Source: Candidatus Kaiserbacteria bacterium
GTDB taxonomy: Bacteria > Patescibacteriota > Minisyncoccia > Phycocordibacterales > UBA12088
DNA: 35,496 nt
Reading direction: 5' to 3'
Assembly (NCBI GenBank): GCA_007116405.1
Contig: SKIN01000044.1
Location: 1-35,496, forward strand
A program made the position numbers and the translations under genes. Under the pieces are notes generated by a model. That model saw nothing but the letters and a program-made list of their open reading frames with translations, did not search any database and had not been told where the DNA came from. Of this stretch, positions 1 to 35,228 are shown piece after piece (the stretch's first letter is position 1; every line of letters starts with the position of its first letter).

Positions 1-19
1 ACTCAAAATTACAAAATAT

Positions 20-37
20 TGAGTTAGATTGAATCTC
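20..37. repeat. Copy 1 of a recurring palindrome-containing motif (TGAGTTAGATTGAATCTC; core AGATT-G-AATCT)
   Basis: Perfect 18-nt inverted match to 577-594. Positions 25-39 are identical to 1241-1255. The core is a 5-1-5 palindrome. Confidence 0.7.
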
Positions 38-100
38 GTCATTGTTGGACAACTAAAAAGGGTGACGCCATGCGACGCCACCCTCCAAGGAGCAAAAGTA

Positions 101-13379: not shown

Positions 13380-14339
13380 TCAATTATATACGGAGAAGTG
13401 TGCTGCCGTTATGCGCGGGACGACTTGTATGCTACCGGCTGGCACGCCCTGCGCGACAAGCTGATCTTTCTCTTGTTGTGTCTTGACTTCATAGACCGCG
13501 CGAAGTCCGTTTGCTTCTGCTATTTCAATCACCCTTCTTACTTCTGCTCCCGTGGGTGTGTAGGAAGAACCACCAACAAAGTTGTAGTCGATGCACGTGC
13601 CATTGTAGTGGCACGGATTACTGTGACGGACAGTCGGTGGCCATACCTCAGTGACCCACATGTTAAGTCCGGCTGCTGTTACAGCGTTGTGGAATGTGAT
13701 TATCTTATCAAGGGTGTTTGCATCGAGTTGGCAATTTCCCGTAGGTGACGCACTCCTGTCGCACTCCCTTCCGTTTGTACGAAGAGAGTGGATGTCGACA
13801 CAGGTGCTACAAAATGATGTTGCTACGGGTGCTTGGGGTGGACGCGTTATAGGTTCGCCGGGTGTAAGCGGAGGTCGTTCGGGGCCCTCTATGTCAGTAC
13901 CTCTACATAGGATTTCATTCCATGGACCCCATTCTGCCGGACCTGCCTCGCCATAGAACGTCTTCATAGCAAAATCGATAAAGAGGTATGACGCGAGTAC
14001 GATGATCAGTCCTATGAGCGTTCTAATGAAAACACGGTGTGCCTTTGCGATGTTCGCAGGGCTCGCCGGAGAGAACAAATACAGAACGCCAGCGTTCACA
14101 AATAACAGTGCTGCTACAATCACTACTACAAATACAAAGAAGTCGATGATGTTCTTAGCAAGTGCGACGAGTTCACAGGGGGTGCAAATATCATCAGTGG
14201 TGTTTCCACAGGGAACCAGTGGTGCCAGCCATGCAAAAGACAGCAAAGGAAACAGCATGAGCACTGTGACCATTGCCACCATTAGCCTGCTTCTTGCAGA
14301 CCGCCTTGTTGATGAATTGTTGTTGGCTTCTGTATTCAT
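13380..14339 (-). CDS. Membrane protein A: N-terminal cysteine-containing pilin-like two-helix module, Pro-rich linker, Cys-rich C-terminal domain
   Basis: 319 aa from MNTEANNN. The module LVPCG...CTPCELVALA...FVNAGVLYLF.PASPANI.KAH...IGLIIVLA resembles the T4SS-pilin-like family common in CPR genomes (recalled, not searched). The C-terminal domain has H-x6-D plus a distal His. Confidence 0.6.
   Translation of the reverse strand: MNTEANNNSSTRRSARSRLMVAMVTVLMLFPLLSFAWLAPLVPCGNTTDDICTPCELVALAKNIIDFFVFVVVIVAALLFVNAGVLYLFSPASPANIAKAHRVFIRTLIGLIIVLASYLFIDFAMKTFYGEAGPAEWGPWNEILCRGTDIEGPERPPLTPGEPITRPPQAPVATSFCSTCVDIHSLRTNGRECDRSASPTGNCQLDANTLDKIITFHNAVTAAGLNMWVTEVWPPTVRHSNPCHYNGTCIDYNFVGGSSYTPTGAEVRRVIEIAEANGLRAVYEVKTQQEKDQLVAQGVPAGSIQVVPRITAAHFSVYN
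13905..14219 (-). repeat. Copy 1 of the ~312-nt pilin-like module coding repeat
   Basis: Encodes residues LVPCGN...WNEILC of protein A. By-eye alignment to the C terminus of protein B gives about four-fifths amino-acid identity. Confidence 0.8.
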
Positions 14340-14349
14340 GGGGCAAGAA

Positions 14350-15156
14350 CTAGTTACACAAGATGTTATTCCACGGACCCCAATCTGCCGGGCCCGCCTC
14401 ACCGTAGAACGTCTTCATTGCAAAATCAATGAAGAGGAAAGCCGCGAGGACGATGATGAGTCCAATAAGTGTCCTGATGAACAAACGATGCGCCTTTGAG
14501 ATATTGGCGGGTGATGCAGGTGCAAAGAGGTAGAGGACGCCAGCGTTCACAAACAGAAGTGCAGCAACGATGACCACGGCGAATACGAAGAAGTTGAGTA
14601 TTCTCTGCGCCAGTGCAACGAGCTCACAAGGCGTGCACATTACGTTGCCGTCTCCACATGGCACAAGACCGGCTTGATTGGCGGTGGGGTCTTGAGCAGG
14701 AGGTGGGGGGTTAGAAGTAGCCCCCCCTCCACCTGAATCTGTAGTAGGGGGTACATAGGCTGAATTCACAATACGGTTGTTTGTGACCGGCAACGCACCA
14801 GGCGCCTCATACGTTATTCGGTACGTACCCTCTACATTGGTATCAAGACTACTTACTGAAGTGATGGTGTTGGTGGATGCATCAATCAATTCGATCCTTA
14901 CCGTAACCTCGCTTGAATCAAGGGGCAGACCCCACCTGTCCTTATACTCAACACCTTGCAACAGATCTGCCTGAGTGATGACACCGGAATCATATTCCAA
15001 CATTACCGAGCCATCCGGTACTTCTATTCTATTATTTGCAAAGGCTACGCTCGGTGTAAAAAGAGCAATCAGGAACCCCGTAATGACACACAGAGCCACT
15101 ATCCCATACACATATCGTTGTGCGCTGACATTTGTCAGAGATACTACACCACTCAT
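14350..15156 (-). CDS. Membrane protein B: signal anchor, Ig-like beta domain, Gly/Pro linker, C-terminal pilin-like two-helix module
   Basis: 268 aa from MSGVVSL. The middle region contains LDTNVEGTYRITYEA, typical of bacterial Ig-like domains. The C terminus is the same module as in protein A. Confidence 0.6.
   Translation of the reverse strand: MSGVVSLTNVSAQRYVYGIVALCVITGFLIALFTPSVAFANNRIEVPDGSVMLEYDSGVITQADLLQGVEYKDRWGLPLDSSEVTVRIELIDASTNTITSVSSLDTNVEGTYRITYEAPGALPVTNNRIVNSAYVPPTTDSGGGGATSNPPPPAQDPTANQAGLVPCGDGNVMCTPCELVALAQRILNFFVFAVVIVAALLFVNAGVLYLFAPASPANISKAHRLFIRTLIGLIIVLAAFLFIDFAMKTFYGEAGPADWGPWNNILCN
14356..14667 (-). repeat. Copy 2 of the pilin-like module coding repeat
   Basis: Encodes LVPCGD...WNNILC at the extreme C terminus of protein B. 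Confidence 0.8.
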
Positions 15157-15315
15157 AACACACCCATTATTGCACGTTTTGGGTCGCAGCACTGACTTTA
15201 TCCCCAAATGCATTGGGTCATATCGGAAACAGCTCGCGGAAGCGGTAAGAACTAACATGTCGAAGGACGACGGCATTTACAAAGTATTCAATTCAATGGT
15301 ACTATCTCACGCACA

Positions 15316-15398
15316 GCGTCGGTGGCGGAGTGGTCAATCGCACTTGGCTGTAAACCAAGCGGCTTCGGCCTACGGGGGTTCGAATCCCTCCCGGCGCA
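15316..15398 (+). tRNA. tRNA-Tyr (anticodon GUA)
   Basis: Acceptor GCGTCGG/CCGGCGC (one G-U pair), anticodon loop CTGTAAA, long variable arm, T loop TTCGAAT, discriminator A. Confidence 0.9.
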
Positions 15399-15401
15399 CA
15401 A

Positions 15402-15432
15402 ACAAAACCCTGCGTATGCAGGGTTTTTGTGT
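15402..15432. terminator. Bidirectional terminator hairpin; copy 1 of a 31-nt direct repeat
   Basis: ACAAAACCCTGC-GTAT-GCAGGGTTTTTGTGT, identical to 15648-15678. Confidence 0.75.
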
Positions 15433-15597
15433 GGGCGACGGGAAGTATGGTGCCTAAGCACCATACGTGGGATTCGAACGGCCGGAGTCATGTTCCGAGT
15501 GAAGCGAGGAACGGACGAGGCCCGTCCAGCGGCACTTGTGAGATGAGCGGCTTTGCCGCGAAGCGAGCTAGTGACCGCGGGATCAATCCCTTCTCTG
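15433..15597. ncRNA. Unclassified structured element E1, homologous to 34830-35006 (strand unresolved)
   Basis: Non-coding gap between two copies of the same terminator. Several local perfect hairpins (15445-15466, GTTCC/GGAAC, GCGGC/GCCGC, GGGA/TCCC). Contains a tRNA-like GGGATTCGAA block (TTCGAATCCC on the other strand). Shares ordered sequence blocks with E2. Confidence 0.4.
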
Positions 15598-15647
15598 ATA
15601 AACCATTAGTATATGGCAGTCAGAAATTAATTGGATCATAGCAACAC

Positions 15648-15678
15648 ACAAAACCCTGCGTATGCAGGGTTTTTGTGT
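15648..15678. terminator. Bidirectional terminator hairpin; copy 2 of the 31-nt direct repeat (also serves clpB)
   Basis: Identical to 15402-15432. Lies 19 nt past the clpB stop. Confidence 0.75.
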
Positions 15679-15696: not shown

Positions 15697-18396
15697 CTAC
15701 GCCCCTGTAATCTGATACGGTCGTATAGCGCTTGGACGTGCCTTGCCCCGCCCTTTCTTTACATCAAAGATAATCTCGTCCTTCTTCATTGCCACCGTTA
15801 TCGAGCCGCCTTCTTTGACACCGTTACTGACCATCATGGAGGCAACAGGAGTGAGTATCTTGTTTTGGATAAGACGCTTCATCGGGCGAGCACCGTAGTG
15901 CGGGTCATAGCCTTCCTTTGCAAGGTAATCCACAACCTCATCAGTTACCGTAAGTTGTATCTCGCGCTCAGACAGACGCTTGGCAACAATATCTATCTGC
16001 ATTCGGGCGATGTCATGCACCACATCCGGCGTAAGGATGTTGAAGAGTAGTATCTCATCAAGACGGTTGAGGAATTCTGGTCGGAAGAAATCCTTAAGGG
16101 AATCCATCACCTTACTCTTCGCATGTTCATAGTCGGCGCTCTCTCCGGTGTCGGCACTAAAGCCCATCCTACTCATGCGGTCGATGTGCTCCGCTCCAAT
16201 GTTTGAGGTCAAGATGATGACCGCATTCTTGAAATTGACCACCCTGCCCTTGGCGTCGGTCAAGTGCCCGTTGTCTAAGACTTGCAGGAGGATGTTGAAT
16301 ACCTCCGGATGCGCTTTCTCCACTTCGTCAAAGAGAAGGACAGAGTATGGACGATGACGTACGGTCTCGGTAAGGTTGCCACCCTCTTCGTAACCAACAT
16401 ACCCTGCCGGTGCACCGATGATCTTTGAAACACTGTGACGCTCCATGTACTCACTCATATCCACCCGTATCAGCGCCTTTTCATCGTCAAACATGAACTC
16501 TGCGAGGGCTTTGGAAAGCTCGGTTTTACCCACACCTGTCGGACCCAAGAAGAGGAATGAACCGATGGGACGATTGGGGTCGGATATACCGGTGCGGGAA
16601 CGGCGCACGGCGTCCGCTATCTTCTGAACCGCATCATCTTGGCCTCGCACGCGCCGCTTCAGCTCATCTTCCATGCGTGATAGCTTCGACGCTTCTTCCT
16701 CGAGCATGCGCGCTACAGGCACTCCGGTCCATCGACTTACTACGTCGGCAATGTCCGCCTCGGTTATCTCCTCTTTGAGGATGCGACGTGTACGTTGCAG
16801 CTTCTTCATGCGCTTCACGTTCGTATCGAGTTCCTTCTCGAGGCCGGGGATAGTACCGTAGCGTATCTCGGCCGCCTTGCTTAGGTCTGCGGCCGCCTCC
16901 GCATTGTCGGCTTCCACGCGCTGTTGTTCGAGGTCCTTCTTGATGCGCTTTATCTCCTTCAGGGTGTCCTTTTCGTTGGTCCACTTCACTTCAAGTTCGC
17001 GGGTCTTCTCACGGAGCGAGCTTATCTCGCTTTCTATTGCACCAAGACGTGTTCTGGCTTTTTTACTGGTCGCATTCGAACTTGATTCTTCAGCGTCCTT
17101 TTTCAGTGCCTCTTTCTCTATTTCCAGGCGCATTATCTTGCGATGCGTCTCTTCAAGGACTGGCGGCTTATTCTCAAGGGCGATACGCAGTGCTGATGCC
17201 GCCTCGTCGATGAGGTCGATGGCCTTGTCCGGCAAGAACCGTTCGGTGACGTAACGCGCGGAAAGATGCGCCGCGGCAACGATAGCGTCGTCGGTAATGC
17301 GCACGCCGTGGTACACCTCGTACCGTTCACGAAGGCCACGCAATATTGCGATAGCGTCCTCCAATGAGGGTTCATTTACTCGCACGGGTTGGAAGCGACG
17401 TGTAAGTGCCTGGTCTTTTTCAAAGTGCTTCTGATACTCTTTTGTTGTCGTAGCACCTATTACCCGCAGTTCTCCGCGAGCCAAAGCCGGCTTGAGGAGG
17501 TTTGCTGCATCAATGGCTCCCTCGGCACCTCCGGCACCGATAAGGGTGTGTATTTCGTCTATGAATAAGATGACGTGACCGTTTGAACGCTCAATTTCCC
17601 GCATGACATTCTTCAGGCGATCCTCGAATTCCCCGCGGTACTTTGTGCCCGCCACCAAAAGGCCGAGGTCGAGCGACACGAGCTCCTTACCACGCATGCT
17701 CTCCGGAACCTCACCCGCAGCCATGCGAACAGCAAGACCCTCGGCGATAGCGGTCTTACCCACACCCGCCTCACCAATGAGGATGGGGTTATTTTTCGTG
17801 CGACGTGAGAGTATCTGGATGACGCGCGTGATCTCCGCATCTCTGCCGATGACCGGGTCGAGTTTGTTTTCTCCCGCAAGCTGCGTAAGGGAGCGCGTGT
17901 ACTTTGCGAGTGCCCGGGACTTCTTCGGCTGGTCTCCGCCCTCTTCCTCGGCACTGCGTGTCTCCTGCAATGCGCGTGTCACCGCTTCGCGCTCGAATGA
18001 GTAGCGCGCGAGGACTTCACCCGCTGGCCCGGGGGTGTCGAGTATGGCGAGAAACAAGTGTTCGGTGCCCACGAACTGGTCGTTCATTGACGCGGCCACT
18101 TTGCCGGCATTCTCAAGGACCTGCGCCAACTCGGGCGTCAGGTAGAGCTGGTAGCTCGGTGAGAGTACAGTGGCGTTCTCCGGTGATTCAAGTGCATCAA
18201 GTATCGAATCGGTCAGCGCTATGATGTCGACATTGAGACGCTCGAGGAGCGAAAACACGATACCCTCCTCTTGGAGGACGACCGCGGCGAGGAGGTGAAG
18301 CGGATTTACGTGGTTCTGGCCACGCTCAACCGCCAGTTCGTGTGAACGCCGAACTGCTTCTTTTGCTTTTGGGGTGAAATTTTGAAACGGTACCAT
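15697..18396 (-). CDS. clpB: ATP-dependent chaperone ClpB
   Basis: 899 aa. Clp N domain, two AAA+ modules ([20 protein letters not shown]) and a long coiled-coil middle domain. Confidence 0.95.
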
Positions 18397-22105: not shown

Positions 22106-22483
22106 TCATTGGAGAGGAAGGTCTGCCGGTAGGTCAGAACCGGTGATGCCGAACGTGAGAAGTACCATTTGTATTATCGCAAAGACTGAGACCATCACCA
22201 CCATACCAATGGTACCCCAAACCATATGTTGTTTTCCAGCAGCGCGCCCTGATTCGTCTCCTGCGTTTAGAATAAAGGTGAGTAGACCATAGAGGAAGTA
22301 CACAAGGGCTAGTGCAAATATCACCCCGATAATGGGATTGATAATGTTATCCGACACTTTCGTCATGAATTCGACGGTTGCCGGAGGAACGGTGTTGTCC
22401 ATAGGAAAATCGGGGAAAGAGCCGTCTAATGCATGGGCCACCTTCGCACTAGAGCTCTGTACACCCTGAAATAGGCTGATCAT
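22106..22483 (-). CDS. Small TrbC/VirB2-like (pilin-like) membrane protein, paralog 1
   Basis: 125 aa with two TM helices flanking FILNAGDESGRAAGKQHMVWG, a motif shared with the four upstream paralogs. Confidence 0.6.
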   Translation of the reverse strand: MISLFQGVQSSSAKVAHALDGSFPDFPMDNTVPPATVEFMTKVSDNIINPIIGVIFALALVYFLYGLLTFILNAGDESGRAAGKQHMVWGTIGMVVMVSVFAIIQMVLLTFGITGSDLPADLPLQ

Positions 22484-22538
22484 GATATGTCACAAGTATA
22501 CACGGTGACGCGAACGTACCGCAAACTATCTTATACAC

Positions 22539-22563
22539 AAAAACACGGCTGTGCCGTGTTTTT
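22539..22563. terminator. Bidirectional terminator between pilin-like paralogs 2 and 1
   Basis: AAAAACACGGC-TGT-GCCGTGTTTTT. Confidence 0.65.
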
Positions 22564-22586
22564 GTGGCAGAGTAACAAAACTCTTA

Positions 22587-22946
22587 CTAGGCACCAGGAA
22601 TTGCAGGTAGATCTGCGCTGCCACCTGTGTCGACACCGGTGAGCTGCGCGAGAAGATTTACAAGTCCCCATACTGCTACGATAACGAAGAGTGCGATAAC
22701 ACCCCATATCATCTTTCGCTTACCTTCCTCCTTTGCAGCCTCATCTCCGGAAGCAGCAATGTACTGCACGAGACCCCAGATGAAGAACAAGAGACCCAAG
22801 GCAATGACAAGTGGTATCAAGAGGTTGACGACATCCTGAATCCCCTCGACAAGCGTCTCGAAGAAACTGAGGTCTGGTGATGCTGCCAACACCATTACCG
22901 GCAGAAACATCATCCCAAATGGAATCGCTCTAGCTACTGTATTCAT
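22587..22946 (-). CDS. Small TrbC/VirB2-like membrane protein, paralog 2
   Basis: 119 aa, signal-like N terminus, motif YIAASGDEAAKEEGKRKMIWG between two TM helices. Confidence 0.6.
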   Translation of the reverse strand: MNTVARAIPFGMMFLPVMVLAASPDLSFFETLVEGIQDVVNLLIPLVIALGLLFFIWGLVQYIAASGDEAAKEEGKRKMIWGVIALFVIVAVWGLVNLLAQLTGVDTGGSADLPAIPGA

Positions 22947-23109
22947 ATGAATTATGATAATTTTTAACGTCTTCTAATAAATAACTATTGGTTCAGAGGG
23001 CTTATTCTCTGCTTAGGTACGAATTACGTACTTCACCTTACTAAGCATACCACATTTAATTGCCGCTATACACGCTGTCTGTGGATAATCGTGCACCTCA
23101 ACAAGATCG

Positions 23110-23490
23110 CTAACATGGCTCCATAGTGCCACCTCCGGACAGATCTATCTGAGGTGGTGGGCACCGATTGCCCCCAGGCTGGGACGCATCGACTCCAAAC
23201 AATTGTGTCAATAATGTTACCACACCCCAGACGGTCACAACTAGAAAAAGGCCCACAATACCCCATACCATCCGCTGCTTCCCCTCGGCTACACCTTTTT
23301 CATCTCCTGCATTCGCGATAAAGCGCACGAGACCCCATATGAATACAACAAGGGCTATACCGACCCCAACGGCAACAAACTGCCCCAATGCGATGGTAAT
23401 GAAGTGCAGTATGGTAAACGCTGTCACTTGCGCATGTGCAACACTTGATGTCAGAAAGGCGATAAGTAACAATGCAGGTACTATTTTCAT
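23110..23490 (-). CDS. Small TrbC/VirB2-like membrane protein, paralog 3
   Basis: 126 aa, signal peptide MKIVPALLLIAFLTSSVAHA, motif FIANAGDEKGVAEGKQRMVWG. Confidence 0.6.
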   Translation of the reverse strand: MKIVPALLLIAFLTSSVAHAQVTAFTILHFITIALGQFVAVGVGIALVVFIWGLVRFIANAGDEKGVAEGKQRMVWGIVGLFLVVTVWGVVTLLTQLFGVDASQPGGNRCPPPQIDLSGGGTMEPC

Positions 23491-23496
23491 ATGGTG

Positions 23497-23832
23497 TTAT
23501 GCTGAGCCGAAAAAAGTTGCGTAAATGATCCTTACAACACCCCATATGCCAACCATCATGAATAGAGAAAGGACGCCCCACACCATGACCTGCTTTCCTT
23601 CAGACCTTGCTCTTTCGTCTCCCGACCCCGCTATGAAGCGAATGGCTCCGTATATGAACGCGAGTACCGCCAATACCATCAGAAGCGTTACCACGAGACT
23701 CAAGAGGGCCATCGCTATTTCAGCGACAGTCTTGAGGTCCGCTGGTCCGGCATAGGCCGCCACAGGGACAGAGAGCGCCACAAAGATAGCTACCAACCCT
23801 TTCTTGTGAGATGTGATGTGGAGAGCGGACAT
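23497..23832 (-). CDS. Small TrbC/VirB2-like membrane protein, paralog 4
   Basis: 111 aa from MSALHITS; this start avoids overlap with paralog 5. Motif FIAGSGDERARSEGKQVMVWG. Confidence 0.6.
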   Translation of the reverse strand: MSALHITSHKKGLVAIFVALSVPVAAYAGPADLKTVAEIAMALLSLVVTLLMVLAVLAFIYGAIRFIAGSGDERARSEGKQVMVWGVLSLFMMVGIWGVVRIIYATFFGSA

Positions 23833-23836
23833 GATA

Positions 23837-24169
23837 TCAGAAAGACTGTATCGTGCCCTTGATAGCAAGGGCAAGTGCCTTCGAACCCAGGACCACGAGC
23901 GCGCCTATTACTGTCCATATCAACGCCCTACGGGCCTCCTGCAACTTTGTGGGGTTCCCTTGAGCCGCAACAAATAAGAAGCCGGTGTACACTATCATGA
24001 GCACAATGATAGGGTACATGATGTATACGACCACATTAAGTATTGCAAGTAAAAATTCTTCCAACGTGTCAGATTGAAGGGGGTTTTCAAACTGTCCATG
24101 CACGAAAACGGTCGACGGCACTAACGCGATTGATAGAACACTTAGGAGGAATCTCTTCAATGTAGCCAT
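23837..24169 (-). CDS. Small TrbC/VirB2-like membrane protein, paralog 5 (most divergent)
   Basis: 110 aa, signal-like N terminus, motif FVAAQGNPTKLQEARRALIWT in the same topology. Confidence 0.5.
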   Translation of the reverse strand: MATLKRFLLSVLSIALVPSTVFVHGQFENPLQSDTLEEFLLAILNVVVYIMYPIIVLMIVYTGFLFVAAQGNPTKLQEARRALIWTVIGALVVLGSKALALAIKGTIQSF

Positions 24170-31588: not shown

Positions 31589-31689
31589 GATATCCGTGGT
31601 GTGTGGGATAACGATACCACAGATAGCGGGTACAGTGGCACCGTGCTGTTGCTATTCCTAGTAGGATTCTTGTGTGGTATAATAATACA

Positions 31690-32102
31690 GGCCGTACCGG
31701 ATGGTTACGCCCTTTCAGGGTGAGGAAAGTCCGAACACACCCGGGCACAAGTCCGGAGCACGGTAGTGGGTAACACCCATCGTTCGCTTCGGCGGATAGG
31801 GATGCGAGCAGAGACGCCCAAGCTGAGAGGCGCGGGTACCCGCAAGGGTAAGCCCTTACGGAAACGTAAGGGGTGAAACGGCAAAATTCCTACCTGTGTG
31901 CAAGGCCGTGTCCGACACCACTTTAGTCGTTCAAGTCTGAGAGTTTTGCAATACTGCGTTAGTTGCTATTGCATAACTGATACGTTGTTGAACTACCAAA
32001 GTGGTGTCGGAAGAGCCGCTTGACCCCATGAGTAATTGTGGGGCTAGATATATGACCATCGCCTGCTTATAGCGGGTACAGAATTCGGCTTATAGGTACG
32101 GC
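31690..32102 (+). ncRNA. rnpB: RNase P RNA (bacterial type)
   Basis: P1 pairing GGCCGTACC (31690) with GGTACGGCC (32094). Universal P4 blocks GAGGAAAGTCCG and ACAGAATTCGGCTTATAG are present. A terminator follows at 32111-32133. Confidence 0.9.
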
Positions 32103-32110
32103 CAATACCA

Positions 32111-33966: not shown

Positions 33967-34719
33967 ATGTGCCAAGGTTGTGTAGCAAAACAGCAGGATT
34001 CACTAATGGTCGGTCTTTCCGAGCGGCATGTTGAGGTCATTGAGCGGGCAAGGCCGCGAGAGGATCGTGCCTTCATCAACGCGATCCATGAGGCTGCCAC
34101 CGATGCGCTCACCCCGCATCTCCCCCTCTTGCCGATGTTTGCGGCAATGTACCGCTTCTTGCAGGAGGAACGGTATGGGGTACTGAGCGAATACAAACTG
34201 ATTCGCGTACCCCTATCGATCATACCGCAGGATAAAAAACGGTATCGTACGCCGATCGTCTCGCTTCTCCATGAGACCGTACTTTCGTTCCGTATGAGCG
34301 AACACACGGTGAATATGGTGAATGCTGCGGCAAGAAGACATGGAGTTTGCATCCTGTACCTCTGCTCGTGTGGGGTCGTCATGGGACGATGTGAGGATGT
34401 GGCTCGCTTCCAAGGAAGTGCGGCGCACCGTAGCATGGACCTTCTCCGCTCAACCATTGATGCGGAAGGCAACCCTGTCGTGGATGTCACCCATTGGAAC
34501 CAGATACCCTCACCCAATATGGACATAGCGCCAAACGGATCGGAGATCGAACTCTTCGAGGATATCAGCGACCTCCTGATGCTTGCCGCCAAGGCACAGC
34601 GACCGGAATACCCGTGGCTCGACAACATGTTGTCGCGATACATTGGACAGCCGTCCATCAAGTACGCGCACAGCCCCGTTGCTGGCAGCATGGGTATTGA
34701 AGCCCGGCAGACCGCGTAG
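33967..34719 (+). CDS. Hypothetical protein (250 aa)
   Basis: GAGGTG lies 6 nt upstream of the ATG. Composition is protein-like, and the terminator at 34736-34763 follows. The antisense ORF 33939-34724 is S/R-rich and was rejected. Confidence 0.55.
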   Translation: MCQGCVAKQQDSLMVGLSERHVEVIERARPREDRAFINAIHEAATDALTPHLPLLPMFAAMYRFLQEERYGVLSEYKLIRVPLSIIPQDKKRYRTPIVSLLHETVLSFRMSEHTVNMVNAAARRHGVCILYLCSCGVVMGRCEDVARFQGSAAHRSMDLLRSTIDAEGNPVVDVTHWNQIPSPNMDIAPNGSEIELFEDISDLLMLAAKAQRPEYPWLDNMLSRYIGQPSIKYAHSPVAGSMGIEARQTA

Positions 34720-34829: not shown

Positions 34830-35006
34830 GGCGGAGAGGGAGGTTTCGTCCCAGAATCACGGCTGTTTGTTTCGTCTACGACTCACAAACAGACTCGTGT
34901 TCTTGGACGGCTCCTCGAATTTCATTCGCCTCGACGGCTCATGAAATAATCTCCGGAGCTTCGAATCCCTCACGCGAGCAAAGCAGTTTGCTCGCTCCTC
35001 TCCGCC
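34830..35006. ncRNA. Unclassified structured element E2, homologous to 15433-15597 (strand unresolved)
   Basis: A 10-bp closing helix pairs GGCGGAGAGG (34830-34839) with CCTCTCCGCC (34997-35006). Internal perfect hairpins are CTGTTTGT/ACAAACAG, ATTTCAT/ATGAAAT and GCGAGCAAA/TTTGCTCGC. Contains a TTCGAATCCC block. No plausible ORF. Confidence 0.45.
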
Positions 35007-35010
35007 CAAG

Positions 35011-35038
35011 AAAATAACCACCTGGCGGTGGTATTTTC
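35011..35038. terminator. Bidirectional terminator between E2 and tRNA-Ser
   Basis: AAAATAACCACC-TGGC-GGTGGTATTTT. Confidence 0.7.
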
Positions 35039-35044
35039 TACGGG

Positions 35045-35131
35045 CGGAGAGGGAGGGATTCGAACCCTCGAGGGAGTTTCCCCCCTACTCGCGTTCCAGG
35101 CGAGCGCCTTCGACCACTCAGCCACCTCTCC
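35045..35131 (-). tRNA. tRNA-Ser (anticodon GGA)
   Basis: Acceptor GGAGAGG/CCTCTCC, D arm GCTGAGTGGTCGAAGGC, anticodon loop CTGGAAC, long variable arm, T arm GAGGG-TTCGAAT-CCCTC, discriminator G. Confidence 0.9.
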
Positions 35132-35228
35132 GTTATGTGATTGTCTTATTTCTAGCCTATCGCAGCCGGCACGGCACCACTATACCATGCAAAGGGCGGC
35201 TTGGATAAGCCGCCCGTGGATGAGGTGG

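What the first reader, a model, noticed from the sequence alone, without database searches (positions are those of the whole stretch)
15402..15678. Element E1: second copy of the tRNA-adjacent structured element, flanked by a duplicated 31-nt terminator
**What the sequence shows**
- The 215-nt gap between tRNA-Tyr and clpB is bounded by two identical copies of ACAAAACCCTGCGTATGCAGGGTTTTTGTGT (15402-15432 and 15648-15678).
- The region between them has no credible ORF; the 70-aa track ORF 15429-15641 has no motif or ribosome-binding site.
- It carries the same ordered blocks as E2 (see the E2 finding). Read on the minus strand it ends with TTCGAATCCCAC, a 9-bp hairpin, then TTCCC-GTCGCCC-A, which looks like a tRNA 3' half split by a hairpin.

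**How it differs from E2**
- I could not find a 5' partner for the acceptor-like GTCGCCC strand. E1 may be a degenerate copy, or the E2 closing stem may be a side product of its flanking repeat.

**Other details**
- A good -10-like TATACT sits on the minus strand about 20 nt before the first conserved block, which would fit minus-strand transcription of E1.
- The exact duplication of a whole terminator around the element looks like a target-site or module duplication, not ordinary intergenic sequence.
Basis: partly seen in the sequence, partly recalled or inferred. Interest (0 to 1): 0.7.

Follow-up and report, generated by a model that had tools for sequence, protein, structure and literature searches.

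The report
Eroded tRNA-flank structured mobile element
The stretch between tRNA-Tyr and clpB is a worn-down copy of a previously uncatalogued, gene-less, tightly folded ~170-nt element that in candidate-phyla-radiation bacteria sits right behind tRNA and tmRNA genes and carries an inverted and a direct copy of that gene's 3' end, which makes it look like a miniature mobile insertion rather than a tRNA-like gene.

Summary
**Observation.** It holds. The 31-nt hairpin is duplicated exactly (35 nt at 97%), no gene lies between the copies, and E1 is truly related to E2. A covariance model built without E1 finds it at 58 bits, E = 3e-14.

**Family.** E1 and E2 belong to a family seen here only in Patescibacteria, with about 16 copies in 11 loci. 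Copies lie immediately 3' of tRNA-Tyr, tRNA-Ser, tRNA-Leu and tmRNA genes.

**Architecture.** Every copy reads, in order:
- the t(m)RNA 3' end;
- a hairpin;
- an inverted copy of that 3' end, usually split by a 9-bp hairpin;
- a strongly covarying three-way-junction core;
- a direct copy of the 3' end, starting in the T loop;
- often a second hairpin.

**Interpretation.** Wobble-pair counts and paired models favour the tRNA-sense (+) strand.

**Mobility.** Copies are patchy among close relatives, tandemly repeated, chimeric or decayed. No Rfam family matches, and no recombinase gene is nearby.

**Best reading (about 0.4).** E1 is a relic of a miniature, non-autonomous element that inserts at t(m)RNA gene 3' ends. 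The main rival (about 0.3) is a structured non-coding RNA co-transcribed with the tRNA.

The parts
15316..15399 (+). tRNA-Tyr(GTA), the gene the element is attached to. Its T arm and acceptor 3' strand (called X) are the sequence copied inside the element.
   Evidence: ARAGORN; Rfam tRNA at 59.7 bits. Its first 69 nt are identical to the closest relative L001, but both T-stem strands and the downstream hairpin differ (alignment A6).
15398..15432 (.). Hairpin T1, copy 1 of the duplicated 31/35-nt terminator-like palindrome, between the tRNA and the element.
   Evidence: family D5, inverted pair I2. The terminator scan does not call it.
15430..15445 (+). X': a degenerate inverted copy of the tRNA-Tyr acceptor 3' strand (TGTGGGCGACGGGAAG versus the exact complement GTGCGCCGGGAG).
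   Evidence: Read directly. The same position in intact copies is an exact complement of the neighbour's 3' end.
15445..15466 (+). P5 hairpin: a 9-bp stem GTATGGTGC/GCACCATAC with loop CTAA (CTGC in most copies).
   Evidence: In alignment A4 all 9 pairs show changes on both sides and 100% of cells are paired.
15467..15479 (+). GTGGGATTCGAAC: an inverted copy of the tRNA T loop and T-stem 3' strand (the 5' strand of helix P1b).
   Evidence: In the tRNA-Leu(taa) copy this block reads GCGGGAATCGAA, following that tRNA's own T loop.
15480..15523 (+). P3/P4 arm: helix GGCC/GGCC enclosing a GGAG / ACGAG internal loop and a small hairpin.
   Evidence: Model alignment A4, helices 4-6, with changes on both sides.
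15524..15584 (+). P2 long arm (CGTCCAGCGGCACTT ... AGTGACCGCGGGAT).
   Evidence: Helix 7 of A4: 23 pairs, 20 with changes on both sides, 96.8% paired.
15579..15597 (+). Decayed direct copy of the tRNA T arm and acceptor 3' strand (GGGATCAATCCCTTCTCTG).
   Evidence: The homologous position in L004 reads GGGATCAATCCCTCCCGGCGC, against the tRNA's GGGTTCGAATCCCTCCCGGCGC.
15598..15643 (.). 46-nt spacer with no counterpart in other copies. It holds the minus-strand TATACT.
   Evidence: Its origin is unexplained.
15644..15678 (.). Hairpin T2, copy 2 of the duplicated palindrome. It also serves as the hairpin after the clpB stop codon.
   Evidence: Half of the same hairpin (AAAACCCTGCGTATG) follows clpB in relative L001.
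34830..35006 (-). E2, the intact sister copy. It lies 3' of tRNA-Ser(GGA) and is co-oriented with it.
   Evidence: R1 at 157.3 bits (training member). An exact 10-nt inverted copy lies at +35 and a direct copy at +202 from the tRNA end. Fold z-scores are -7.6 and -8.3 on the two strands.
35042..35132 (-). tRNA-Ser(GGA), the neighbour of E2. The shared hairpin is at 35017-35032.

Best explanation
**What it is.** E1 is best read on the + strand at 15434-15596, with its flanking hairpins 15398-15432 and 15644-15678. It is an eroded copy of a small, gene-less, highly folded element family of Patescibacteria that lodges at the 3' end of tRNA-Tyr, tRNA-Ser, tRNA-Leu and tmRNA genes.

**What is shown.**
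- Every copy has the order: t(m)RNA 3' end (X, from the T loop to just past the discriminator), hairpin, inverted Watson-Crick copy of X (usually split by a 9-bp hairpin), three-way-junction core, direct copy of X, and often a second hairpin.
- The copies of X follow whichever gene is next door.
- The core helices covary.
- Copies are patchy among close relatives, occur in tandem, and are found as orphans, chimeras and decayed relics.

**What is inferred.**
- A direct repeat that starts in the T loop, next to an intact gene, is the footprint of an insertion into a t(m)RNA gene that restores the gene.
- I therefore read the element as a miniature, non-autonomous integrative (mobile) element. 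On insertion it supplies the new tRNA 3' end plus hairpin and leaves the displaced 3' end on its far side.
- It would be moved in trans by a recombinase encoded elsewhere.
- The strand asymmetry and the X/X' palindrome suggest that its active form is a folded single strand (the tRNA-sense strand, as DNA or RNA).

**E1 specifically.** E1 has lost its closing helix and most of its direct copy of X, so it is probably an inactive relic. The duplicated 31-nt hairpin is the duplicated flank of that insertion or module duplication.
For: **Homology**
- Model R1 was built without E1 and finds it at 58.1 bits, E = 2.9e-14.

**Structure**
- In alignment A4 (11 copies), 95.8% of cells are paired against 66.7% in shuffles. 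44 of 53 pairs show changes on both sides. Slid controls give 36-47%.

**Direct and inverted copies of the neighbour's 3' end**
- They are present in all 11 gene-adjacent copies, and the direct repeat always begins in the T loop. It reaches 62 nt, including the hairpin, in L067.
- The copy after tRNA-Leu(taa) tracks that tRNA's own T loop.
- A copy after tRNA-Leu(tag) has the same architecture around a different core.
- X' complements X rather than copying the gene's 5' strand: tmRNA G3.U70 becomes A-U, and tRNA-Tyr U4.G69 becomes C-G.

**Signs of mobility**
- Among clpB relatives the tRNA-Tyr flank holds, in turn: the element (window, L004, L067), a 60-nt remnant with an exact 17-nt repeat (L003), a different 1-kb insert (L001, ClpB 96% identical), or an orphan copy displaced by a 4.4-kb insert (L066).
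- Tandem copies occur in L031, L028 and L067.
- A chimeric copy in L028 has its breakpoint at the P5 loop.
- The window's tRNA-Tyr matches L001 over its first 69 nt but differs in both T-stem strands and in the hairpin.

**Distribution**
- True matches to the motif in 185,579 species genomes and in the metagenome set are all from Patescibacteria or unnamed; none are in viral contigs.
- The principle that a restored target plus a displaced fragment marks the ends of an island comes from PMC4383910.
Against: - No integrase, transposase or any ORF lies inside or consistently beside the copies.
- 170-250 bp is far smaller than any described integrative island.
- Classical attP sites do not contain an inverted copy of the core, nor covarying hairpins.
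- In E1 a 46-nt spacer separates the decayed direct copy from the second hairpin.
- No clean empty site (tRNA - hairpin - clpB) was recovered.
- No excised or circular form can be seen with these data.
- The strong covariation and purine-rich loops fit an RNA gene equally well.
Confidence: 0.4

Rival explanations
1. A structured non-coding RNA gene on the tRNA-sense strand. It would be transcribed by read-through of the first hairpin as a trailer of the t(m)RNA. It would be closed by a helix made from the inverted and direct copies of the tRNA 3' end, so that tRNA-maturation enzymes release it. Its function in the cell is unknown. On this reading E1 is a pseudogene.
For: - Covariation in every helix.
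- G.U/U.G pairs outnumber A.C/C.A 22 to 3 on this strand.
- Forward model R1 beats reverse model R2 in 8 of 10 held-out copies, by 4.7 bits on average.
- Fold z-scores for intact copies run from -6 to -10.
- On this strand the order is tRNA-like: acceptor 5' strand, hairpin, T-stem 5' strand, large loop, T-stem 3' strand, acceptor 3' strand.
- Internal loops are purine-rich (GGAG / GCGAG) and one GAAA tetraloop is present.
Against: - A hairpin followed by a T run abuts the 5' end, leaving no room for a promoter.
- Pairing of X' with the tRNA's own 3' strand across the hairpin gives a perfect stem of up to 28 bp. This would misfold a read-through transcript.
- The model does not explain why the ends always match the neighbouring gene.
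- Distribution is patchy even between genomes with 96% identical ClpB.
- Several unrelated core types share the same end architecture.
- It is not an aminoacylation mimic: tmRNA-adjacent copies have A3-U70.
Confidence: 0.3
2. One reading: a tRNA-like small RNA transcribed from the minus strand (convergent with the tRNA) from its own promoter. It would end in a T-loop-like motif, a hairpin and an acceptor-like 3' strand at the shared bidirectional terminator.
For: - The hairpins carry A and T runs on both sides, as suits convergent genes.
- E1 and E2 have 45-60 nt of free sequence upstream on that strand, with TATACT in E1.
- The minus-strand 3' end repeats the tRNA's acceptor strand plus terminator.
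- Fold z-scores are about equal on both strands.
Against: - No tRNA or tmRNA call from ARAGORN or Rfam, even at E <= 10.
- The bases 5' of TTCGAAT pair with a distant strand, with covariation, so there is no T arm.
- On this strand the 22 wobble pairs become A.C mismatches.
- The reverse model scores lower.
- In L009, L015, L029 and L031 a hairpin plus T run abuts the 5' end on this strand too.
- The promoter scan finds nothing on the minus strand.
Confidence: 0.08
3. Functionless debris. Palindrome-driven inverted duplications and repeated integrase or homologous-recombination events at tRNA 3' ends leave scars. E1 and E2 would simply be such scars that happen to share sequence.
For: - tRNA fragments and duplicated 3' ends are frequent in these genomes even without the core: tRNA-Lys and a pseudo-tRNA-Leu and the L003 remnant.
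- Breakpoints lie at hairpin loops.
Against: - Scars would not keep 53 base pairs with changes on both sides in 44 of them, across copies attached to four kinds of genes.
- Nor would they keep a 9-bp hairpin of constant length, free stem sequence and a conserved CTGC loop.
- Nor would Ser-type cores score 157-183 bits in different lineages.
Confidence: 0.1
4. A small protein gene, the 70-aa ORF at 15429-15641 on the + strand.
For: The ORF exists.
Against: - It has a GTG start inside the hairpin flank and no ribosome-binding site.
- Homologous copies differ by indels and by compensatory pair changes rather than keeping a reading frame.
Confidence: 0.01

Closest known systems
Genomic islands and prophages integrated into tRNA or tmRNA genes by tyrosine integrases (as catalogued by Islander, PMC4383910)
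   Same: - An intact t(m)RNA gene lies at one end.
- A displaced copy of its 3' part lies at the other end as a direct repeat, starting in the T loop.
- tmRNA as well as tRNA genes are used.
- Tandem arrays and patchy distribution occur.
   Different: - The element is 170-250 bp instead of kilobases.
- It has no integrase or any other gene.
- It contains an inverted copy of the target's 3' end and a covarying multi-helix body.
Folded single-stranded recombination sites: CTX-phi attP(+) used by XerCD (PMC3442271) and integron attC sites used by IntI (PMC4792948)
   Same: - Two inverted segments of the element can pair to imitate the double-stranded target.
- Structure is conserved while sequence is free.
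- Selection is strand-asymmetric.
- The recombinase is not encoded in the element.
   Different: - The target here is a t(m)RNA gene, not dif or attI.
- No recombinase has been identified.
- No experimental or junction evidence exists; the similarity is architectural only.
Non-autonomous elements: MITEs, REPINs and cis-mobilisable elements (CIMEs) (from my own knowledge)
   Same: They are gene-less, short, flanked by inverted or att-like repeats, dependent on a trans-acting enzyme, and include decayed copies.
   Different: - The terminal repeats here derive from the target and change with the neighbouring gene.
- Copy number per locus is low.
- Hairpins beside the Y1 transposase genes of a relative are unrelated.
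tRNA-like RNAs: tmRNA and bacterial Y RNA (YrlA) (PMC4201824)
   Same: The closing helix resembles an acceptor stem stacked on a T stem, a TTCGAATCC motif is present, and the element is adjacent to tRNA genes.
   Different: - No T arm or D-loop analogue is formed.
- No G3.U70 is present.
- No Rfam model matches.
- The ends copy gene-level flanks rather than the mature CCA end.
tRNA-linked repeats of the E. coli tyrT operon (from my own knowledge)
   Same: Repeats downstream of a tRNA-Tyr gene each carry the last ~19 nt of the tRNA.
   Different: Those are simple direct repeats in one species, without an inverted copy or a covarying core. This was not tested here.

Membership tests
Canonical tRNA gene or tRNA 3' half | Cloverleaf recognised by tRNA models | tested here: not met
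   ARAGORN and Rfam RF00005 find nothing at 15433-15647 on either strand, even at E <= 10.
Canonical tRNA gene or tRNA 3' half | T arm: a 5-bp stem closing the TTCGAAT loop | tested here: not met
   The 4-5 nt next to the motif pair with a distant strand (helix P3: GCUCC/GGAGC, GCUGC/GCAGC, GCCAC/GUGGC, GGCC/GGCC, CGAC/GUCG), with changes on both sides.
Canonical tRNA gene or tRNA 3' half | Acceptor stem with a 5' partner | tested here: not met
   In E1 the closing helix is gapped or unpaired. It is met in E2 and most other copies, but as a plain complement of the 3' strand.
tmRNA, including permuted forms | Match to tmRNA models, a tag reading frame, and G3.U70 | tested here: not met
   No ARAGORN or Rfam tmRNA hit. 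True tmRNAs were found next to three copies. Those copies have A3-U70 where the tmRNA has G3.U70.
t(m)RNA-gene integrative island | Intact target gene at one end and a displaced 3' fragment as a direct repeat at the other | tested here: met
   Met in 11 of 11 gene-adjacent copies. In E1 only a decayed fragment and the hairpin repeat remain.
t(m)RNA-gene integrative island | Integrase gene within the element | tested here: not met
   The element has no ORF. Pfam finds no recombinase among 17 flanking proteins.
t(m)RNA-gene integrative island | Presence/absence polymorphism at the same site in relatives | tested here: inconclusive
   The element is absent or replaced in L001 and L003, displaced in L066, and present in L004 and L067. 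No clean empty site was recovered.
t(m)RNA-gene integrative island | Excision to a circle with a reconstituted attP and attB | not testable with these tools
   This needs read-level metagenome data or PCR.
Folded single-strand att site (CTX-phi attP(+), integron attC) | Inverted segments that pair to mimic the duplex target | tested here: met
   X' is the Watson-Crick complement of X, giving a perfect palindrome of up to 28 bp across the hairpin.
Folded single-strand att site (CTX-phi attP(+), integron attC) | Selection on one strand only | tested here: inconclusive
   G.U pairs outnumber A.C 22 to 3, but 13 of the 22 sit at three positions. The forward model is better by 4.7 bits on average. 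Fold z-scores are equal on both strands.
Folded single-strand att site (CTX-phi attP(+), integron attC) | A cognate tyrosine recombinase acting on it | not tested
   No candidate was identified. This needs genome-wide co-occurrence analysis.
Any curated RNA family (Rfam 15) | Score at or above the family's gathering threshold | tested here: not met
   Only tRNAs and RNase P pass in the window. E-value scans of E1, E2 and the L009 copy give only terminator-type noise.
MITE / REPIN | Element-specific terminal inverted repeats, and a partner transposase with matching hairpins | tested here: not met
   The end repeats change with the neighbouring gene. Hairpins next to the Y1_Tnp genes in L063 (GAAAAGGTG-N5-CACCTTTTC) are unrelated.
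Intrinsic terminator (the 31-nt repeat) | GC-rich stem followed by a T run | tested here: inconclusive
   By eye there is a CCCTGC/GCAGGG stem followed by TTTTTGTGT. The scan tool does not call it, probably because A/T pairs extend the stem. The analogous hairpin next to E2 is called on both strands.

The most novel reading that the evidence does not exclude
The family is a new class of gene-less mobile elements of candidate-phyla-radiation bacteria. They travel and integrate as a folded single strand. The inverted copy X' pairs with X to imitate the duplex T-arm and acceptor region of a tRNA or tmRNA gene. A recombinase encoded elsewhere then exchanges strands in the T loop, as XerCD does for CTX-phi or IntI for attC. 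The rest of the element is a compact three-way-junction scaffold. If so, tRNA genes in these naturally DNA-importing, tiny-genome bacteria are being colonised by the smallest integrative elements known.
Probability: 0.18. Interest if true: 0.8.

Novelty: new variant of a known kind. Interest (0 to 1): 0.55.

Why it matters
- **If mobile:** these would be the smallest elements known to target tRNA and tmRNA genes. They would give a handle on how DNA moves in candidate-phyla-radiation bacteria, whose mobile elements and recombination systems are poorly known.
- **If an RNA gene:** it is an uncatalogued structured RNA tied to tRNA-Tyr, tRNA-Ser, tRNA-Leu and tmRNA genes.
- **In either case, for annotation:**
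  - The family explains tRNA-like fragments and contig breaks next to tRNA genes in these genomes (for example, the assembly gap in L067 falls between tandem copies, and the L064 contig ends 68 nt after tRNA-Leu).
  - It provides a covariance model with which to mask or annotate them.
- **E1 on its own** is a decayed copy of modest interest.

Tried and rejected
- **tmRNA or permuted tmRNA.** No model hit. Real tmRNAs sit beside other copies.
- **tRNA with an intron or T-loop insertion that could be spliced.** The neighbouring tRNA is already complete, and the 5' strand is a complement rather than a copy.
- **Primer-binding site for a tRNA-primed reverse transcriptase.** The inverted copy matches gene-level flanks (GCA, CCCA), not the mature CCA end.
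- **Aminoacylatable mimic for anticodon-independent synthetases.** This was attractive because the neighbours are Ser, Leu, Tyr and tmRNA. It was rejected because A3-U70 replaces G3.U70. In addition, a tRNA-Lys also carries a duplicated 3' end, and my searches were biased towards the TTCGAATCCC motif.
- **Hammerhead or other small ribozyme, T-box, K-turn.** By eye, the junction strands and loops do not fit. This was not tested formally.
- **Link to an adjacent recombinase.** Pfam finds none. Y1 transposase hairpins in L063 are unrelated.
- **Phage origin.** Two pattern scans of viral contigs gave only true tRNAs and coding noise.
- **Empty-site test for E2.** I used the conserved 250-aa neighbour, but relatives have no tRNA-Ser there and one contig ends at the hairpin.
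- **Plain sequence alignment of E1 and E2.** It was too weak to decide, which is why covariance models were used.
- **Fold energy to pick the strand.** It did not discriminate.
Full report
**1. Observation**

The window comes from a Patescibacteria (Parcubacteria/Paceibacteria-like) genome.
- ClpB's best named relatives are Parcubacteria.
- Several ORFs carry the T4SS_pilin domain typical of the group.

- tRNA-Tyr(GTA) is at 15316-15399 on the + strand, and clpB at 15697-18396 on the - strand.
- The 31-nt ACAAAACCCTGCGTATGCAGGGTTTTTGTGT occurs exactly at 15402-15432 and 15648-15678. The repeat extends to 35 nt at 97% identity.
- The 70-aa ORF exists but starts with GTG inside the hairpin flank.
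- The minus-strand string TTCGAATCCCAC, a 9-bp hairpin, then TTCCCGTCGCCCA is as described.
- Rfam has no family here, even at E <= 10.

**2. E1 and E2 are related**

E2 lies at about 34830-35006, next to tRNA-Ser(GGA) at 35042-35132.
- A plain local alignment of the two is not convincing: score 23, reached by 16 of 500 shuffles.
- I therefore collected relatives and built covariance model R1 from E2 plus three foreign copies, leaving E1 out.
- R1 finds E1 at 15434-15596 with 58.1 bits, E = 2.9e-14. Nothing else in the window scores above 16 bits.

**3. A family restricted, as far as seen, to Patescibacteria**

The motif CTCCG-N4-TTCGAATCCC-(0-2)-CACG is shared by E1, E2 and a homologue next to tRNA-Tyr in the clpB relative L004. 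I scanned three collections with it.
- The species-genome set gave 25 hits. Five are real: two Saccharibacteria, one unnamed, one Paceibacterota, one Nomurabacteria. The rest are coding noise or true tRNAs.
- The metagenome set gave one real hit.
- Viral contigs gave none.

Model searches of these loci and of further clpB relatives added more copies.

About 16 copies in 11 loci are now known. They lie after:
- tRNA-Tyr (window, L004, L028, L067);
- tRNA-Ser with three different anticodons (window, L031, L042);
- tRNA-Leu(taa) and tRNA-Leu(tag) (L065);
- tmRNA (L009, L015, L029; the tmRNAs were confirmed by Rfam).

In addition there are second tandem copies (L031, L028, L067) and two orphans (L028, L066).

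**4. Anatomy**

All copies share one plan. Reading along the t(m)RNA strand, the order is:
1. the gene's 3' end (X: T loop, T-stem 3' strand, acceptor 3' strand, discriminator and one or two further bases);
2. a hairpin with A and T runs (T1);
3. X', the Watson-Crick complement of X, usually interrupted exactly at the junction of acceptor and T stem by a 9-bp hairpin with loop CTGC (P5);
4. a three-way junction made of a short helix (P3) that encloses a GGAG / GCGAG internal loop and a small hairpin (P4), plus a long arm (P2);
5. a somewhat degenerate T arm followed by a direct copy of X;
6. often a second hairpin (T2).

Further points:
- The direct repeat begins in the T loop in every case. 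In L067 it runs 62 nt through the hairpin.
- The copied blocks follow the neighbour. After tRNA-Leu(taa), whose T loop is TTCGATT, the element reads GCGGGAATCGAA and TCGATCCCGCCCC.
- X' is a complement of X, not a copy of the gene's own 5' strand. Where the tmRNA has G3.U70 the element has A-U. Where tRNA-Tyr has U4.G69 the element has C-G.
- The copies also include bases beyond the mature 3' end rather than CCA. The duplication was therefore made at the DNA level.

**5. The structure is under selection**

On the 11-copy model alignment:
- 95.8% of cells form standard pairs, against 66.7% in shuffles and 36-47% when partners are slid.
- 44 of 53 pairs show changes on both sides.
- The 9-bp P5 stem varies freely in sequence at constant length.

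The alignment was fitted to the model, which inflates these numbers somewhat. However, a MAFFT/RNAalifold analysis made before any model already gave 26 of 36 pairs with compensatory changes.

Intact copies fold far better than shuffles, with z from -6 to -10. E1 gives only -2.4 on the minus strand and -3.7 on the plus strand.

**6. Which strand**

Fold energies do not discriminate. Four indicators favour the t(m)RNA-sense strand.
- Non-Watson-Crick pairs are G.U or U.G 22 times and A.C or C.A 3 times. The caveat is that 13 of the 22 sit at three positions.
- Model R2, built from the reverse complements of the same four copies, scores held-out copies lower than R1 in 8 of 10 cases, by 4.7 bits on average.
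- Unpaired segments are purine-rich on this strand.
- Only on this strand is the order of parts tRNA-like.

I put this strand at about two in three. In several loci a hairpin plus T run abuts the element's 5' end on both strands, leaving no room for a promoter. That is awkward for any simple gene model.

**7. Behaviour among relatives**

Downstream of clpB, the tRNA-Tyr flank varies widely:

| Locus | What lies at the tRNA-Tyr flank |
|---|---|
| window | E1 |
| L004 (ClpB 85% identical) | intact copy |
| L067 | two tandem copies separated by an assembly gap |
| L003 | a 60-nt remnant plus an exact 17-nt repeat of X |
| L001 (ClpB 96% identical) | an unrelated ~1-kb insert with an ORF |
| L066 | an orphan copy preceded by a tRNA-Tyr 3' fragment, 4.4 kb away from the live tRNA-Tyr |

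Other observations point the same way.
- The window's tRNA-Tyr is identical to L001's over its first 69 nt but differs in both strands of the T stem and in the hairpin. This indicates replacement of the gene's 3' part by recombination.
- In L028, a 46-nt duplication ends exactly at the P5 loop and creates a chimeric copy whose two ends belong to different genes.
- Half of the window's 31-nt hairpin follows clpB in L001. The hairpin was therefore probably the ancestral shared clpB/tRNA-Tyr hairpin and was duplicated when E1 arrived.
- None of 17 flanking proteins is a recombinase.

**8. Interpretation**

- A direct repeat of a t(m)RNA gene's 3' part, beginning in the T loop and next to an intact gene, is the accepted footprint of site-specific integration that restores the target (PMC4383910).
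- The patchy distribution, the tandem, chimeric and decayed copies, and ends that always match the neighbour add to this. The most economical reading is a miniature, non-autonomous integrative element.
- The classical model does not explain the inverted copy or the covarying body.
  - These would make sense if the active form is a folded single strand in which X' pairs with X to imitate the duplex target, as in CTX-phi attP(+) or integron attC (PMC3442271, PMC4792948).
  - That step is inference only.
- The main rival is a structured RNA gene read through from the t(m)RNA. It explains the covariation but not the neighbour-specific ends, the patchiness or the lack of promoter space.
- The two readings are not exclusive: the element could be mobile and also encode an RNA.
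- E1 has lost its closing helix, has a decayed direct copy of X and carries an unexplained 46-nt spacer. It is most likely an inactive relic.

**9. Limits**

- The family was collected with a motif that includes TTCGAATCCC and with models derived from it. The apparent preference for Tyr, Ser, Leu and tmRNA genes may therefore be biased.
  - A tRNA-Lys in L065 also has a duplicated 3' end, without the core.
- No clean empty site, no excised form and no transcript data were available.
- The taxon labels are those of the public records.

Noticed in passing
window 34830-35006 (-), with 35017-35032 and 35042-35132: E2 is the intact sister copy. It has an exact 10-nt inverted copy and a direct copy of the tRNA-Ser(GGA) acceptor strand, and it folds with z about -8. 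It is the better object for any experiment.
   Followed up: yes
window 15316-15399 versus L001:7868-7951: tRNA-Tyr is a mosaic. It is identical to the closest relative over its first 69 nt, but both T-stem strands (GGGGG/CCCTC versus GCAGG/CCTGC) and the downstream hairpin differ. This points to recombinational replacement of the gene's 3' part.
   Followed up: partly
L065:4706-4965 (+): After tRNA-Leu(tag) lies an element with the same end architecture (a continuous inverted copy and an exact direct copy of the tRNA 3' end) but an unrelated core and no P5 hairpin. Its core resembles that of the L066 orphan (GAAGATGT ... GAAGTGAG ... ACATGTACCGTTC). The organising principle is therefore broader than the family modelled here.
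   Followed up: partly
L028:115-167 and 1041-1093: A 46-nt direct duplication (flank, inverted copy and half of P5) diverges exactly at the P5 hairpin loop. The result is one copy whose two ends match different genes. Hairpin loops seem to be break-and-join points. The clpB hairpin in L001 is likewise cut at its loop (L001:6722-6745).
   Followed up: partly
L066:6273-6370 and L065:4300-4380: Other tRNA debris is present in relatives: a partial duplicate of tRNA-Leu(tag) right after the gene, and a copy of the tRNA-Lys 3' end 58 nt downstream of that gene, behind a hairpin.
   Followed up: no
window 31689-32108 (+): A bacterial class A RNase P RNA scores only just above threshold (110.7 bits against a cutoff of 100) and contains a 24-nt inverted repeat at 31911-32011. 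It may have an unusual insertion.
   Followed up: no
window 17-39, 572-598 and 1232-1258: Three copies of a 21-27-nt sequence (TATTGAGTTAGATTGAATCTC) lie in direct and inverted orientation around ORFs at the start of the window. They may be ends of another small repeat element.
   Followed up: no
window 13380-15276 (-) and 22106-23874 (-): There are tandem paralogous genes with weak T4SS_pilin matches, including a 286-nt repeat at 76% identity (13904-14189 and 14355-14640). A run of four ~120-aa membrane-protein genes also sits next to the tRNA cluster. A third hairpin with similar flanks lies at 22533-22567.
   Followed up: no
L063:1014-2711: A clpB relative carries two Y1 (IS200/IS605 or RAYT-type) transposase genes, each followed by the hairpin GAAAAGGTG-N5-CACCTTTTC. 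The neighbourhood is rich in toxin-antitoxin genes. The hairpins are unrelated to the element.
   Followed up: partly
window 33967-34719 (+): The 250-aa ORF next to E2 is a real, conserved hypothetical protein with 28 homologues and no Pfam domain. It usually follows a ParA/CbiA-like gene. The overlapping minus-strand 261-aa ORF is therefore spurious.
   Followed up: partly
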